DNA of 64,000 nucleotides from Saccostrea cucullata (lineage: Eukaryota): contig NW_026937360.1 in the NCBI RefSeq assembly GCF_032062105.1, forward strand, positions 434,001-498,000, read 5' to 3'. Each line of letters starts with the position of its first letter. Positions within the stretch are counted from its first letter, which is position 1. A program made the position numbers. Positions 27,001-44,900 of the stretch are shown here, in pieces.

Positions 27001-30000
27001 AAAGCCTGATGTAGTATGTAAAAATTAACATTTCAATGTCTTGACAAATCAAGTCTCTGTCGTTAATTACAAAATAATATTTTCCACTGTATTTTGAAAT
27101 TTTCAAAGATTATGATAAGCCCTTCAGCATAAGGTAAAACAAAATAAGTTATACATGTAGTTATGTAATCTTTGGAGTTTCTTACCGTTATCTGATGCCT
27201 TTAGTTTTAGAGAATATGATCGCCTTGTTTATTACAAGAATTTTTTCTTATTACATGTTTTTTGAAATTTTTGTCCTTTATTGTGGCACTGGATACAATT
27301 TGAAGAAATCTCTTTCATCGATAGTACATGAGTATGACAGTCTGACAAAAAACTTAAATTTTGATGAATGGTGTTATAGGGATAGATCTGTTATGTTATA
27401 GAGAAAACTATTATCTAACATGTCTAAAACAGTAGAGTTTTAGGAGTTCTTGGTTACAGACATGTATTTTAAACCGCCCTTTTTCATTTTCTGCATTCAG
27501 TCTCATTTCCTTTTTAACCCTAATGATTGTAATTTCCTCTAAGAAAAATAATTCAAAGGATTTATTTGGTCGTTTGAAAATTGGGAAATAAATGTTTGAT
27601 CCCTGAACACAGTGAAAAATTAAACTATAATGGGAAATTTAAAAACTGTTACTCTTTTCCAAACTGACATATTAAAAATTGAAGGTGAATGAAGTCAAGT
27701 CACAATATGTAAATAATCTTCTGTGATGAATAGTATTTTTGAATGTGATATTGATCCTTTCATGTTTGGCTACAATTAACATAACGTTATGTGTGTAGTT
27801 GTTATTTTACACAAAATTTTGAAGTAGATTGTAAATTAGCTGTAACAGCTTTCACGTCTGGTAACAGAAAATTTATCATCTTAGAATAAATAAATGTATG
27901 GTATTGCTCTTATTCAAATCTAATTAGATCTGGACAAATGTTCATCTGAATCCATTATACGGCCTTTCTCTATTCGATGACTTGCTATATTATCGTTGTT
28001 GTATTTTATGTCACTTAAAGGTTCACTATTATTTGTAATAACAAAGACAACAGATGCTGCATGTGTAGTGTCACGTTGTCTGTAGTACTGTTTGTTGAAA
28101 TCACATTGAAACTTCTTTCCAAATAATTACGAAGTAAATATTTCACTTTACACTGTGTATAAACAAAAGAAAGTATTAATTTTTCATTACAAGAAATACA
28201 AATTATATAAATGCAGGAAGACGTTAATTAAATCTCTCATTAATTATATTTGTGCAAATAATTAACCCATGTCCGGTGATATAGAACTCTGAGGAACAAC
28301 TACATCTTAATCATACTGATCACACAATTTAATAAATTATTCATCTGATAATTGTTGGTAAAGCTGTTTGCCATTAGAGGATAAATTGTTCAAGTTTTGA
28401 AGATATTTATTAAAATAGTTGTTTTGTTTGTATTCAACAAGATTATTGTAAAGTAGAATTTTATTTCATTGTTGCATAAAATTGTTAATTTATTATGATT
28501 ATTCATTTTCCTATTTATACATGCAGAATCTTTCAATATAATGAGTGATATAATACATGTATGTTGCATATTTGATACTGTACAGGTTTCATGAATAAAT
28601 TCAAGTCGATTATTTTTCAAATATTGATTTTATTATCTTGCATAACATTGCTTAAACATTGACATTACAAAATTGATACATTTTAATAACAACAATTGAA
28701 CACTTATAATACGCCCCTACATACATGGTATGTATCTATGTTCTGGTCTGCGTTAGCTGTCTCTTTTATCTGGAAAGAAAAGAATATTTTTAAATGATCT
28801 GTACATGTATTTTCAAAGGAAAATGGACACAGTTGCATGACCTTTTTTAATTTCTACAATTTTAACTTTCTATAAGGATATTTTATTCAAGAAAAATCTT
28901 GAAATTCAATGACCACTTTATTATTCATAATATAAAAAACAAAAAAAATATTTAAAAAAATTCCCTATAGTGTTAATATATCATTTATTAAAACACCTGA
29001 TTTTGCAACTGTCAAACAATTCAATAAAAAGTGGAAGGAAGTAAAGTAATTACACGCCTATGTTTTGTATTTTTGATAATTTTGAGATAATTTTGAAGAT
29101 TCTCAACATGCCTTAATTAATTTCTAATGGCCCCAAAACCCTGATGGGTAAATCTTTATATTAATACACACAATATAGTAATTTTGAAAAAAACAACATT
29201 TTTTCTTATCTGTGCCCCGTCTCTCTCTCTCAGAAAAAATTAAAAATTAACATAATTTATTGATATATACAAAGTATCCTAGGCCTGCGCTTACATCTAT
29301 ATAATTATCTTTTTTCCAAAAATTATCAGGAAGAGTTTGGCAAAAAGAATGGTCATGCATTTTTTATTATTCCTTAAGATTGTTTGATATTCATACTCAA
29401 TACAGACATACACACTGCACAGATGATTTGTCTGATTTAACTACTTTTATGGCATTGTTTATCAAAACGACAATTGAAGACAATAGTGCCACACATAGGA
29501 GCGTTCTGTAATGGACTAGTGGCCACATCTTTATCCTTGGGCGGGGCTTGTTACTTTTTTAGACATTCTTATCGAGAAATCTTTTAATATCAGTTTGAAT
29601 GACGATAAAAATCATGTTTGACCTCACCCTTACCTCAAGAAAAGAACATCTAAGCTTACGTTAAGGTCATAAACCAAATAATCCTAGAGTTCACTAACAT
29701 GTATAAAGATGTGGTCAGTCTCAAAAAATATCTTAAGTAATTGTTACCAAGGGAAGGAGTCTTACCATTCCAATCAAAATAGAGAAATAAAAATGTCCAA
29801 AGGGAGCGAGAGACTGGAAATCCTATTGCTATTATGCTTAAATAATACACTTCCTAAAGCTGACTAGGCATTAAAGATGAGGTCCCGAGAAAAGAGGGAA
29901 CAATAAAACTAATCAACATTCGACTATACAACTAACCCTCTTTTCTTCTTCAAGTTTACTTAATTCTCTAATATATACATGTATTCATTATTAATAAAAC

Positions 30001-41900: not shown

Positions 41901-44900
41901 GATATAACCTCTGTATGCTGGTAATGAAGGTACATTGCTGCACAAGTAAGGGAAGTAGACGATTGAAAAGTTCAAGTCATTAGGTTTATCATACAGCTTG
42001 GTTGGTAGATTACCATTAACGTCTTTCTCAAGTAAAATACCCAAATATGAAATAGCTGTGTCAGACTCCGTAGTATATTTTGTTCCAAGCTCACCGTGAT
42101 ATATCGTATCGACATAAGAATGGAAATAACCAGTGTTCATTGACAATACGTCGTCTAAATATATAAATGTCGAGTTGAAAATATTATAGTTTCATTGGAC
42201 ACGGTAATAGCTTTAGCTAGATAATTTGATTACATTTTCCTTTAAAATACAGAAAATCCCACCTTTGAAGTCTTAATTAACACTATTTAGGGAAAGACAT
42301 GCATATATACTTTGTAATATTTCCGTATAGTAAAATCAGTTATCCATTCAAAAGAAGTAACTCTTTATGAGTCATCGTTTTGTCCTTTACTTAGAAATTT
42401 AACTCCCAAAGTTGTCTTTTACTGAACGACCCTATTGACTTAAAGGTCAATTTACTCACCCGACCGTGCACCAACAGATATGATGACTACTGCAACTTGA
42501 AGTATGATCTGCAAAGACAGAGAAAGTAGGTCATTAGTAAGATAGTTTGACATACTTTTCTCATCTTTCTGACTCACAGACGAGAGGAAGTCGTTGAACT
42601 CGGAGGACACTGCATTGAGGATTGAGTGCAGCAAGTAATGGAGTGTGAGTAGATTGGTATCCTTTGTTGTGTTTTATATAAGAACTGCTAACTTATCTGT
42701 ACATAAAGTGTGTGTGAAGTCATACTTTTGAAATTACGTTTTATAAGGGGTGATGTTCTGAATTATGTCGTGTCCTGCTTATGCAACAGTTCAAACGATC
42801 TTTTTAACAACTATCCTTTCTCAGATTTGGATCCAAAATATGTTTAAAATTCTGACACCATGAGAAAAATGATACGTCAAAAAATATTTTTTTTTAAATC
42901 AAATGACCATTAATGATAATGACAACAAGGATTGGTGTGATGATGACGATGACAAAACATTGACAACTTCCTTTAACAATGACAATACACGACACTCACG
43001 GGGTATCGTCTATTTATTAATTTCGGAATGACAGTTTATAATAACTAATAATATAGTTATAATTGTCAGAATGACAGTTTATTCACGGGTACAATCATGT
43101 ATTTTTATAATAATTATTATGTAATACTTTATCACGACAATCTTTTTCAGTTTTGAAAATTATTATCTTGCTTAATTGATAAATTTGATTTGAAGTTCTG
43201 CAGTGTGGTCAATTCCTTTTAAATACATGTTACGTAGAAAATCTTGAAAAATTAAGATTTAGTGAATGTCATATTCATAAATATCTTTTATCTTTGCGAT
43301 GAGACATTTTCTCCCATAGATTAGGAAATATGGGAAATATCCCTTATATCATGATAATGATGCTGTATTTCACTTACCAGAATCTATGGGATTTATCCCA
43401 TGTTTCAAAATGTATGAGATAAAATGCCCCATCGTCAATATTCATGGGATTTATCCGATTTGAACACATTTTAAGGATTAAAAAATCCATTGAGAGAAAT
43501 TATTCCATCTGACACGTTTTCTCTTATTGGAGAAAGGTGGGGTAGTTGAAAGGACTAAAAATCTCAGAATTCTCTCGTGGGAGTTTGGGGGGCATTTCTA
43601 AAGGACTTCATATCTTTAAAAATAGACATCATTGTAAGTTCATCGTGACACCATGTACTGCTAAGAAATCCCACCAATTTTTTTAAACATTATATTTAGA
43701 ATTTGATGTAAAAAGTCTTGATAATGCTGCTCAAGGAGGTAAATGTCGTTCATTTTTTTTTTACAACTGTTTCATCACTGTTCGTATAATTGTTTAATAT
43801 ATGCATTTAGATATTTTTTTTCTGTTTCATGAAAGTGTCTATCAGAAAAGGTAAAAAATTCTTCAAGGACAACAAAAATCTTTCTTCATGCATGTATGAT
43901 ATTTATGCATGCAATTACTGGTTTATGATGAAGTTCATGCACCTGTGTAGCTTTTCTCTTTTTAAATTAAATTAGATATCTCACCTTGAGCAACATCGTT
44001 TAAAATCCCTTTACCTACACGTTACAAAGACACACACATATAAAATGACTTTAATTTTATTCTTATTTTCCTTTATAAACCATAAACTCTACCCATCTAT
44101 GCACAGGAAATCACGTGGTTCCTATTCAAAAGTGTACATTTCCATTATAAATAAGATAAGCAGCTTCAGTCATTGTAAAGTTTCTCTATTCTTTATATAA
44201 TTATAACAGTGAAAGATGAATTGTTAAGTAGAGGTACTCATCTTTTGTTGTGTGTACTTGAGACCCTGTTCACGTTTGGTGGTAGCCTGTGACAATCGAG
44301 TCTTCCTTGTAAACAAACCAGGTATGTCCCTGATGGTCAACTGGCGACATCTCTGTGTCGTTTGCAGCTGTATCCGCTTCCGAAAAAAGCGATTATTTAT
44401 TTTTCTTGCTGAATTGACGACGTCAATTAACGTTATAGGAGTAACCGCTTGTTTTTCTCTTCAAATTTGCAAAACATGTTTTATTTTTTAAATTTATCCT
44501 TTTGGAGGATACAATATATTAGAAGGTACTAGCATCATGCACTAGGAAAAAAATTGCGTAGATCTCTCCTGTGGCACATTTTTGAGTCTCAATCCTATTT
44601 AAATACAATACAATATAGAGACAGAATCTTATTTTGATTACCGATATATAAATATAAATTTAATGTTATTTTAGAAAAATTTCAGATTTTCAACATAGTA
44701 TGTATCCACAGTTTTTCTTCCTTCCCCTAATTTGGTAATTTTGGTATTTTACTGTCGGAAGTCTGGCGTTTCATTGTAAAGCATCTTCTACACTCTAGAT
44801 AGGTCTACAGTATCAAAGACCAAGAGAAGTCCATCATCAATTGCAACAATTGCTTATTTAATAAATCTTTTAAAACATTTTTATCAGTTTTAAAGGTTAG

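What the first reader, a model, noticed from the sequence alone, without database searches (positions are those of the whole stretch)
28753..42553. Hidden orphan Ig-type receptor with an ITAM-like motif and a docking-site-rich tail
Seen: ~16 small exons assemble in frame into signal peptide, one Ig-like domain, Thr/Pro stalk, TM and a ~250-aa non-catalytic tail with about a dozen tyrosines. Exon 36776-36634 encodes YDEV-x7-YCEL. Established: the ITAM consensus is YxxL/I-x6-8-YxxL/I (here Val at the first +3); pYxN binds Grb2-type SH2; PxxPxK/R binds SH3. Inference: a lineage-specific immune or adhesion receptor that also acts as a transmembrane adaptor for Syk/Shark- and Grb2-type signalling.
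Basis: partly seen in the sequence, partly recalled or inferred. Interest (0 to 1): 0.72.

Follow-up and report, generated by a model that had tools for sequence, protein, structure and literature searches.

The report
Oyster single-Ig receptor with tyrosine-docking tail
This is a real, already annotated but unstudied oyster gene for a membrane protein with one antibody-like outer domain and a long inner tail of conserved tyrosine docking sites, so it probably relays signals, though nobody has tested how.

Summary
The gene is real. The window is oyster DNA (Saccostrea cucullata), not human. The minus-strand model equals RefSeq LOC134248049, "uncharacterized protein", isoforms X1 (493 aa) and X2 (481 aa). 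These map letter for letter to 19 and 18 coding exons. All 18 introns are GT-AG and the CDS is 1482 nt.

Its ATG (42553) lies in intron 1; the true ATG is at 43996. The "stalk" is a 12-aa optional cassette. The tail is 298 aa with 14 Tyr.

No Pfam Ig model matches, but two structure predictions give an Ig-like sandwich.

The two-tyrosine motif is kept in 55 of 55 relatives: YDEV-x7-YCEL in 48, YEEV-x6-YCEI in 6, and YDDI-x8-YDEL in 1 (Pinctada). Only the Pinctada form meets the strict ITAM consensus. Its exon is the most conserved in the gene.

The tail also carries 4-5 YxxP, 3 YxN and 4 PxxPx[K/R] motifs. Its distal part is a triplicated three-exon module of phase-1 exons.

Homologs appear only in true oysters and one pearl oyster. 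I found no paper on the gene.

Best reading: a lineage-restricted IgSF phosphotyrosine scaffold receptor. Syk recruitment is possible but unproven.

The parts
43985..43996 (-). Coding part of exon 1: ATG plus 3 codons, donor GTgaga, intron phase 0.
42460..42508 (-). Exon 2: hydrophobic core and end of the signal peptide (..VGARS).
40492..40637 (-). Exon 3: first half of the Ig-like domain. It carries invariant C39, C44 and W60 and the sequon N65-x-T67.
39878..40103 (-). Exon 4: second half of the Ig-like domain. It carries C92, C96, sequons N97 and N136, and D112-x-G114-x-Y116 followed by Leu where the F-strand Cys would be.
39702..39737 (-). Exon 5: 36-nt Thr/Pro-rich cassette of 12 aa, present in isoform X1 only, phase 1-1. 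Least conserved exon (0 of 12 columns invariant).
37165..37296 (-). Exon 6: acidic juxtamembrane stretch, TM helix (about residues 167-195, with invariant G177, T178, C185, C189, C194) and start of the basic stop-transfer run.
37024..37042 (-). Exon 7: 19-nt micro-exon encoding basic residues. Intron phase 1 before it and phase 2 after it.
36634..36776 (-). Exon 8: Y222 (YDEV), 7 residues, Y233 (YCEL), then Y248 (YIQP).
35606..35701 (-). Exon 9: Y259 (YKAP) and an invariant ..PEIFSNTESP stretch, phase 1-1. It is skipped in C. angulata isoform X7.
34207..34278 (-). Exon 10 (repeat unit 1, part a): Y291 (YLQP) and Y309 in an N-x-L-Y context.
33902..33982 (-). Exon 11 (unit 1, part b): EPT-Y325-SN (YxN) followed by PVLPRK (PxxPxK).
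31699..31764 (-). Exon 12 (unit 1, part c): poorly conserved spacer ending in Y359, whose YxxP is completed in the next exon.
31494..31544 (-). Exon 13 (unit 2, part a): N-Q-L-Y375. This Tyr is present in Saccostrea and Ostrea only.
31232..31312 (-). Exon 14 (unit 2, part b): EPT-Y391-GN (YxN) followed by PLLPKK. P398, P401 and K403 are invariant.
31004..31063 (-). Exon 15 (unit 2, part c): spacer.
30681..30743 (-). Exon 16 (unit 3, part a): VPPKP and N-Q-L-Y443.
30469..30552 (-). Exon 17 (unit 3, part b): Y450 and T-Y460-SNP (both YxN and YxxP), then KLPTRK.
30222..30269 (-). Exon 18 (unit 3, part c): Ser/Asp-rich stretch (SRSRSDDSELS..).
28753..28769 (-). Exon 19, coding part: completes Y489, then 4 codons and TAA (28755-28753).

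Best explanation
LOC134248049 of Saccostrea cucullata encodes a type I membrane glycoprotein. It has one divergent Ig-like ectodomain, a single TM helix and a 298-aa disordered tail that works as a phosphotyrosine docking scaffold.

Shown here: the gene model; the fold prediction; the conservation of the tail tyrosines and of their +1 to +3 residues; the enrichment of YxxP and PxxPx[K/R] motifs; and the triplicated exon module.

Inferred mechanism: ligand binding or clustering of the Ig domain brings the tail to Src-type kinases. The phosphorylated tyrosines then recruit several SH2 adaptors at once:
- a proximal two-tyrosine unit (YDEV-x7-YCEL), read either by a tandem-SH2 kinase (Syk/Shark) or, at its first site, by Nck;
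- four to five YxxP sites of Crk type;
- three YxN sites of Grb2/Drk type, each followed by a PxxPx[K/R]-like SH3 ligand.

Every distal tail exon is phase 1-1 and carries one motif. Exon skipping can therefore change the set of docking sites without breaking the frame.
For: Gene model. P0002 and P0013 match the window exactly, exon by exon. All 18 introns are GT-AG and the CDS is 1482 nt.

Transcription of orthologs. Unnamed contigs of 1177-2483 nt carry uninterrupted 223-487 aa orthologs, whereas the same coding sequence spans 15.2 kb here. The simplest reading is spliced mRNA.

Topology. There are two hydrophobic segments only. Three N-x-T sequons (N65, N97, N136) are invariant in the ectodomain. 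A basic run follows the TM helix.

Fold. The AlphaFold2 model on 9 sequences has eight strands in residues 29-138, with pLDDT 58-81 per 10-residue block, while the tail is below 50. Foldseek against the PDB gave 60 matches at E<=0.001. The best are Ig domains: Lrig3 I-set (E 6e-5), the neuroplastin N-terminal domain (TM by target 0.61-0.64) and CD147 Ig0 (0.59-0.62). The ESM Atlas's own model matches clusters carrying Ig families in 9 of 10 rows, TM by query 0.67-0.74.

Tail.
- 10 tail Tyr are invariant in 9 sequences, and 7 remain invariant when Pinctada is added.
- Exon 8 is the most conserved exon: 82% mean identity and 28 of 47 columns invariant, against 66% and 54% for the two Ig exons.
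- YxxP: 5 found against 1.34 in shuffles (fraction reaching 5 is 0.0064). PxxPx[KR]: 4 against 0.47 (0.0008). YxN: 3 against 0.88 (0.05).
- The two-tyrosine unit is present in 55 of 55 proteins of at least 350 aa.
- Repeat units: hhalign U1-U2 probability 95.9%, E 5e-9; U1-U3 92.3%, E 5.5e-7. tblastn cross-hits between exons 11 and 14 support this.

Motif meanings come from passages I read: Grb2-family SH2 binds pYxN, three such sites in LAT (PMC6669380); Crk SH2 binds pYxxP, an ancient specificity (PMC5043372); Nck binds YDxV in nephrin (PMC12203975); oysters have Syk and an ITAM-Syk-ERK route through another receptor, CgIgR (PMC6994640).
Against: - No experiment or expression data for this gene was available. 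I found no paper naming any of 7 locus or accession ids.
- No Pfam Ig model matches the exons or the whole records, even at E<=10. The profile found nothing credible among PDB sequences: 1 hit, E 0.42, a Cas9.
- The fold model is of moderate confidence only, and the Pinctada model failed.
- Short tyrosine motifs are degenerate. YxN enrichment is marginal (0.05) and Yxx[LIV] is not enriched (0.34).
- U2-U3 similarity is weak: probability 8.3%, E 0.004.
- The 55 proteins are isoforms and near-identical copies from about eight species-level groups, not 55 independent observations.
- Phosphorylation, kinases and partners are all inferred.
Confidence: 0.6

Rival explanations
1. ITAM receptor in the strict sense. 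The proximal pair Y222/Y233 is phosphorylated as a unit and binds the tandem SH2 domains of oyster Syk or Shark, making this an activating immunoreceptor of haemocytes. The rest of the tail would be secondary.
For: Both tyrosines, a hydrophobic +3 residue and a spacing of 6-8 are kept in 55 of 55 relatives. The Pinctada homolog has YDDI-x8-YDEL, which meets the strict consensus. The exon is the most conserved in the gene. Oysters have Syk, and a different Ig receptor (CgIgR) binds it through an ITAM (PMC6994640, passages).
Against: 54 of 55 relatives have Val at the first +3 and fail Yxx[L/I]-x6-8-Yxx[L/I]. YDEV is the Nck-type motif of nephrin. The relaxed pattern arises in 3.7% of shuffles. 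The TM helix has no charged residue of the kind that partner-dependent ITAM subunits use (sequence; the rule is recalled). Tissue of expression is unknown.
Confidence: 0.3
2. Adhesion-type scaffold like nephrin or p130Cas. The Ig domain mediates cell-cell or cell-matrix contact, and the tail drives actin remodelling through Nck (YDEV) and Crk (YxxP), with no link to Syk or immunity.
For: YDEV equals two of mouse nephrin's motifs (table in PMC3237483). Four YxxP are invariant in oysters and three are kept in Pinctada. YxxP is the most enriched tyrosine motif. The nearest solved folds include the adhesion molecules neuroplastin and CD147.
Against: There is only one YDxV, whereas nephrin uses three for multivalent Nck binding. 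Ostrea has YEEV and Pinctada YDDI at that site. There is no sequence homology to nephrin or Cas.
Confidence: 0.25
3. Endocytic or sorting receptor. The conserved tyrosines would be YxxPhi and NxxY-type sorting signals read unphosphorylated by clathrin adaptors, so the protein carries cargo rather than a signal.
For: YDEV, YCEL and YTEV fit Yxx-hydrophobic, and three N-x-L-Y contexts exist; Pinctada has NPMY at one of them. That these patterns act as sorting signals is recalled knowledge and comes from no call.
Against: Yxx[LIV] is not enriched (3 against 2.06, fraction 0.34). The enriched and invariant classes are YxxP, YxN and PxxPx[K/R], which are SH2 and SH3 ligands. Ten invariant tyrosines are more than sorting would need.
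Confidence: 0.12
4. Annotation artefact or decaying gene: a chance chain of small ORFs.
For: Exons are short (12-226 nt), the sequence is AT-rich and the RefSeq records are computed models.
Against: 18 of 18 introns are GT-AG and the frame is intact. Intact orthologs exist in six named oyster species and in Pinctada. Intron-less contigs carry the orthologs. The tail is under strong constraint.
Confidence: 0.02

Closest known systems
CgIgR of Crassostrea gigas (BCR-like ITAM receptor; PMC6994640, abstract and passages read)
   Same: An oyster type I IgSF membrane protein with a two-tyrosine motif in its tail. It shows that ITAM-Syk-ERK signalling exists in oysters.
   Different: CgIgR has five Ig domains and the motif EGDYTELGQCDPETPYEKL, so it is a different gene. 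Its tail is not described as a multi-site scaffold. Its accession is in supplementary methods that I could not open.
LAT and other transmembrane adaptor proteins (PMC6669380, passages)
   Same: A non-catalytic disordered tail with three pYxN sites for Grb2-family SH2 domains. Invariant cysteines sit at the cytosolic end of the TM helix (C185, C189, C194). In LAT such cysteines are palmitoylated (recalled).
   Different: LAT has almost no ectodomain (recalled), whereas this protein has a 124-aa Ig-like domain. There is no sequence similarity. The extra YxxP sites and the two-tyrosine unit are not LAT features.
Nephrin (PMC12203975 and PMC3237483, passages)
   Same: An IgSF membrane protein whose tail carries YDEV (Nck), YxN-like and other tyrosines, and which acts as a multivalent scaffold.
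   Different: Nephrin is described there as having Ig-like domains and three YDxV motifs. This protein has one Ig-like domain and one YDxV, and is not homologous.
p130Cas substrate domain and choanoflagellate membrane proteins with YxxP repeats (PMC5043372, abstract and passages)
   Same: Several YxxP sites in a disordered region. That paper describes transmembrane proteins with cytosolic YxxP repeats as Crk SH2 targets.
   Different: There are 4-5 YxxP here against 15 in Cas. There is no SH3 or FAT-like domain and no sequence relation.
CD79a/b and CD3 chains (recalled, no call)
   Same: One Ig-like ectodomain, a TM helix and a two-tyrosine motif near the membrane.
   Different: Those tails are short and their TM helices depend on partner subunits. 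Here the tail is 298 aa and the TM helix has no charged residue.
Hydractinia Alr proteins (PMC9546547, passages)
   Same: Invertebrate receptors whose Ig domains lack canonical residues and were recognised through structure prediction. Some tails carry ITAMs, and intra-sheet disulfides are proposed.
   Different: They are a cnidarian multi-domain family in a histocompatibility complex, and are unrelated in sequence.

Membership tests
ITAM-bearing receptors | Yxx[L/I]-x6-8(9)-Yxx[L/I] in the tail (consensus as quoted in PMC9546547) | tested here: not met
   The window has YDEV-x7-YCEL, with Val at the first +3. The strict pattern is found in 1 of 55 relatives (Pinctada) and the relaxed pattern with Val in 55 of 55.
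ITAM-bearing receptors | Both tyrosines and their spacing conserved among relatives, cytoplasmic side of the TM helix | tested here: met
   55 of 55 relatives have a spacing of 6, 7 or 8. The motif lies 27 residues after the TM helix.
ITAM-bearing receptors | Dual phosphorylation and binding of Syk/Shark tandem SH2 domains | not testable with these tools
   No phosphopeptide or binding tool is available. Syk exists in oysters (PMC6994640).
Immunoglobulin superfamily | Match to a Pfam Ig-clan model | tested here: not met
   No Ig family at E<=10 for exon 3, exon 4 or three whole records.
Immunoglobulin superfamily | Ig-type beta-sandwich fold | tested here: met
   Model pLDDT 58-81 per block. 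Foldseek top hits are Ig domains at E 6e-5 to 1e-3, with TM by target up to 0.64. In the Atlas, 9 of 10 rows carry Ig families. Both are predictions.
Immunoglobulin superfamily | Core residues: B-strand Cys, C-strand Trp, DxGxYxC with an F-strand Cys | tested here: inconclusive
   C44, W60 and D112-G114-Y116 are invariant, also in Pinctada. Leu118 replaces the F-strand Cys. Four other invariant Cys exist, but their pairing could not be read because no coordinates are given.
LAT-type transmembrane adaptors | Negligible ectodomain (feature recalled) | tested here: not met
   The ectodomain is a folded domain of 124 aa.
LAT-type transmembrane adaptors | Several pYxN sites in a non-catalytic tail | tested here: met
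   Y325, Y391 and Y460. The first two are invariant in 9 of 9 sequences.
LAT-type transmembrane adaptors | Palmitoylated juxtamembrane cysteines | not testable with these tools
   C185, C189 and C194 are invariant. Acylation is unknown.
Nephrin-type Nck docking | Multiple YDxV motifs | tested here: not met
   There is one YDEV only. Ostrea has YEEV and Pinctada YDDI at that site.
ITIM/ITSM inhibitory receptors | [SIVL]xYxx[ILV] or TxYxx[VI] | tested here: not met
   0 matches in 5 of 5 representative proteins.
Cas-type Crk substrates | Array of YxxP plus SH3 and FAT-like domains | tested here: not met
   There are 4-5 YxxP, enriched at 0.0064, but no other domain.

The most novel reading that the evidence does not exclude
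This is the founding member of an undescribed receptor family of oysters and pearl oysters. In it an ancestral canonical ITAM (kept in Pinctada, changed to YDEV in true oysters) heads an exon-triplicated, splice-tunable array of Crk-, Grb2- and SH3-type docking sites. One chain would then combine what vertebrates divide between an ITAM subunit (CD79/CD3 type) and a LAT-type scaffold. It would be a second, independent ITAM-Syk entry point in molluscan haemocytes.
Probability: 0.25. Interest if true: 0.6.

Novelty: new member of a known kind. Interest (0 to 1): 0.4.

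Why it matters
Little is known about how molluscan cells couple surface recognition to tyrosine-kinase signalling. In my searches, the one oyster ITAM receptor with tested Syk binding was CgIgR. This gene offers a compact, conserved and testable second case.

- It has ten invariant tyrosines of recognisable SH2 classes.
- Each docking motif sits on its own phase-1 exon, so natural isoforms already provide deletion series.
- It is another example of an Ig-like domain that sequence models miss and structure prediction finds.

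For oyster farming it is at most a candidate haemocyte or epithelial receptor. Nothing here links it to disease.

Tried and rejected
- Rfam scan of the window: 0 matches.
- Pfam on exons 3, 4, 6, 8 and 9 and on three whole records: only sub-threshold hits, several of them over the TM helix.
- Profile against PDB sequences: 1 hit, E 0.42, a Cas9, taken as chance.
- Word-based search with the Pinctada protein found only itself (1 of 2171 candidates).
- Exon 4 search found only the two Saccostrea records (2 of 5 candidates). Both searches are limited by shared words.
- ESM Atlas on the tail: best score 0.78, TM at most 0.21, so no look-alike.
- AlphaFold2 of the Pinctada homolog: ectodomain pLDDT below 50. 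It is uninformative, so I did not search folds with it.
- The greedy mapping placed residues 3-7 at 55012-54998. That is a chance 5-mer match. Exon 1 is at 43996.
- The bacterial promoter/terminator scan upstream of exon 1 does not apply to an animal gene.
- tblastn of P0013 against the window found no second copy of the gene.
- Literature: a search for YxxP+Crk+SH2+YxN+Grb2 together gave 0 papers. PMC9333988 held YDxV only in its reference list.
- I did not use complex prediction. It cannot model phosphotyrosine, and I claim no specific unmodified pair.
- The genome-contig collection holds only bacteria and archaea, so I did not scan it.

Full report
**Source and scope.** The window is AT-rich animal DNA: GC is 0.28-0.40 per 2 kb and it contains no N. 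It is not human. It carries an innexin exon (Pfam PF00876, E 1e-78). The gene under study matches, letter for letter, two RefSeq proteins of the oyster Saccostrea cucullata. Analyses that needed a whole protein used the public records that the exon search returned.

**Checking the observation.** Twelve of 18 candidates passed E<=0.01.
- Seven are named 'uncharacterized protein' records of S. echinata, S. cucullata, Ostrea edulis, Crassostrea virginica, C. angulata (two isoforms) and Magallana gigas.
- Five are unnamed.

P0002 (XP_062586457.1, isoform X2, 481 aa) maps to the window in 16 exact blocks. Exon 1 and the last exon were found separately. P0013 (XP_062586456.1, X1, 493 aa) adds one 12-aa block. 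With boundaries set by AG and GT, X1 has 19 coding exons of 12-226 nt. All 18 introns are GT-AG and the exon lengths sum to 1482 nt, which is 493 codons plus TAA.

Four details are off.
- Its ATG at 42553 exists and is in frame, but it lies in intron 1, 45 nt before a pyrimidine-rich acceptor. The annotated ATG is at 43996, and all nine aligned relatives begin with the exon-1/exon-2 join.
- The 'stalk' is one 36-nt cassette exon, present in X1 only.
- The tail is 298 aa with 14 tyrosines.
- The gene is not hidden, because it is annotated.

**The ectodomain.** No Pfam Ig model matches exon 3, exon 4 or three whole records, even at E<=10. The nine-sequence profile finds nothing credible among PDB sequences. 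Structure prediction gives a different picture.
- AlphaFold2 on alignment A1 gives eight strands between residues 29 and 138, with block pLDDT 58-81.
- Foldseek against the PDB returns 60 matches at E<=0.001. The best are Ig domains: Lrig3 I-set, neuroplastin N-terminal domain, CD147 Ig0, MyBP-C, IgM C4 and nanobody-sized chains, with TM by target up to 0.64 at 10-18% identity.
- The ESM Atlas's own model matches Ig-family clusters in 9 of 10 rows.

Invariant residues fit an Ig frame: C44 in the second strand, W60, L102 and D112-x-G114-x-Y116. These also hold in the Pinctada homolog. Leu118 stands where the F-strand cysteine should be. Four invariant cysteines (39, 44, 92, 96) probably form other bridges, but I could not read the coordinates. 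Three N-x-T sequons are invariant. I call this an Ig-like fold, predicted. Membership of the superfamily by sequence is not shown.

**Membrane span.** Only residues 1-20 and about 164-197 are hydrophobic. The second is a predicted helix at 167-195 and is followed by a run of Lys/Arg. G177, T178, C185, C189 and C194 are invariant. No charged residue lies in the helix.

**The tail.** It is predicted disordered, with pLDDT below 50, and has no look-alike. Even so, it is the best-conserved part of the protein. Exon 8 has 82% mean identity to the other eight sequences and 28 of 47 invariant columns, against 66% and 54% for the two Ig exons.

Ten tyrosines are invariant in nine sequences:

| Residue | Context |
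|---|---|
| Y222 | YDEV |
| Y233 | YCEL |
| Y248 | YIQP |
| Y259 | YKAP |
| Y291 | YLQP |
| Y309 | N-x-L-Y |
| Y325 | YSN |
| Y359 | YA[QK]P |
| Y391 | YGN |
| Y443 | N-Q-L-Y |

Motif counts against shuffles of the tail:

| Motif | Found | Shuffle mean | Fraction of shuffles reaching the count |
|---|---|---|---|
| YxxP | 5 | 1.34 | 0.0064 |
| PxxPx[KR] | 4 | 0.47 | 0.0008 |
| YxN | 3 | 0.88 | 0.05 |
| Yxx[LIV] | 3 | 2.06 | 0.34 |

No ITIM, ITSM or YxxM occurs in five representative proteins.

**The ITAM question.** The window's motif is YDEV-x7-YCEL.
- 48 have YDEV-x7-YCEL;
- 6 (Ostrea isoforms) have YEEV-x6-YCEI;
- 1 (Pinctada) has YDDI-x8-YDEL.

Only the Pinctada form meets the strict consensus. 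These 55 come from about eight species-level groups and are not independent observations. By chance, the relaxed pattern appears in 3.7% of shuffles and the strict pattern in 1.6%.

The conserved pairing and spacing across two orders of Pteriomorphia argue that the two sites work together, which suits a tandem-SH2 reader. Against this, true oysters fix Val, and YDEV is exactly the Nck-type YDxV motif of nephrin. Oysters do have Syk and use it downstream of another receptor, CgIgR. CgIgR has five Ig domains and a different motif, so it is not this gene. I put Syk recruitment at about 0.3.

**Modular build.** Exons 5, 6 and 9-18 all begin and end in phase 1 and have lengths divisible by three. 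Profile comparison of three consecutive three-exon blocks shows that they are repeats:
- block 1 against block 2: probability 95.9%, E 5e-9, 54% identity over 37 columns;
- block 1 against block 3: probability 92.3%, E 5.5e-7;
- block 2 against block 3: weak (probability 8.3%, E 0.004) but collinear.

tblastn cross-hits between exons 11 and 14 agree. Each block reads as follows: an exon ending in N-x-L-Y, then an exon with EPT-Y-[SG]-N followed by P-x-L-P-x-K, then a poorly conserved spacer. Pinctada has one such block.

Public isoforms of orthologs drop single exons. C. angulata X7 lacks the exon-9 equivalent, and X6 lacks part of the stalk. Splicing can therefore change the docking set.

**Range and transcription.** A profile search of 1.84 billion representatives gave 19 hits at E<=0.001. 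I read 9 of them and already held a tenth, P0007. Apart from P0007, the only long hit is P0035, a hypothetical protein of Pinctada imbricata (356 aa, E 3e-12). The other eight that I read are 71-160 aa pieces carrying one exon's worth of match. Nine hits of 36-62 aa I did not read. Nothing from mussels, scallops or other phyla passed, though I cannot say how fully they are represented in that library.

Unnamed contigs of 1.2-2.5 kb carry whole uninterrupted orthologs; the three clusters have 68, 23 and 6 members. Here the coding sequence spans 15.2 kb. That is best explained by assembled mRNA, which gives indirect support for the splice pattern in Magallana-like species. There is no such evidence for S. 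cucullata itself.

**Literature.** No paper in the library holds any of seven locus or accession ids. The CgIgR accession and any gene lists in supplements could bear on whether this gene has appeared in expression tables.

**Verdict.** This is a real gene and an ordinary kind of protein: an IgSF receptor with a tyrosine-based docking tail. It belongs to an undescribed, lineage-restricted family. Three points add interest: a conserved ITAM-like pair, an exon-per-motif triplicated scaffold, and an Ig fold that sequence models miss. Mechanism and biological role remain inferred.

Noticed in passing
window 37271-37402: A 66-bp tandem duplication (2 copies, 92% identical) copies the acceptor and first codons of the TM exon. 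The upstream copy reads on into a stop codon, so it looks like a decoy acceptor or pseudo-exon just upstream of exon 6.
   Followed up: partly
window 41497-42179, 35079-35518, 35761-36050, 45640-45896, 48880-49067: An interspersed repeat has copies in introns 2, 8 and 9 of the gene and upstream of it. The best pair is 80% identical over 449 bp, inverted. Its ORFs carry a YxDD-like box by eye, but no Pfam family matched at E<=0.01.
   Followed up: partly
window 37564-37691 and 37969-38098: A 130-bp inverted repeat, 89% identical, lies in intron 5. Its nature is unknown.
   Followed up: no
window 24753-25772 (+): A large innexin exon (PF00876, E 1e-78) lies downstream of the gene on the other strand.
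   Followed up: partly
window 55143-55517 and 57756-58421 (+): Two exons of a D-isomer 2-hydroxyacid dehydrogenase (PF00389, E 8e-5; PF02826, E 8e-56).
   Followed up: partly
window 58794-59159 (-): A 121-aa open frame with a ..FWSLDLDDF.. stretch recalls family-18 chitinases by eye only. No Pfam family matched at E<=0.01.
   Followed up: no
window 38952-38985: A run of 34 T lies in intron 5.
   Followed up: no
P0010 (K1QIS2_MAGGI, 181 aa): The older M. gigas record shares exon-3 and exon-8 equivalents with the current models, but has unrelated residues between them. It looks like a mis-spliced early model.
   Followed up: no
It could be the donor of an alternative 5' exon. This was not tested.
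   Followed up: no
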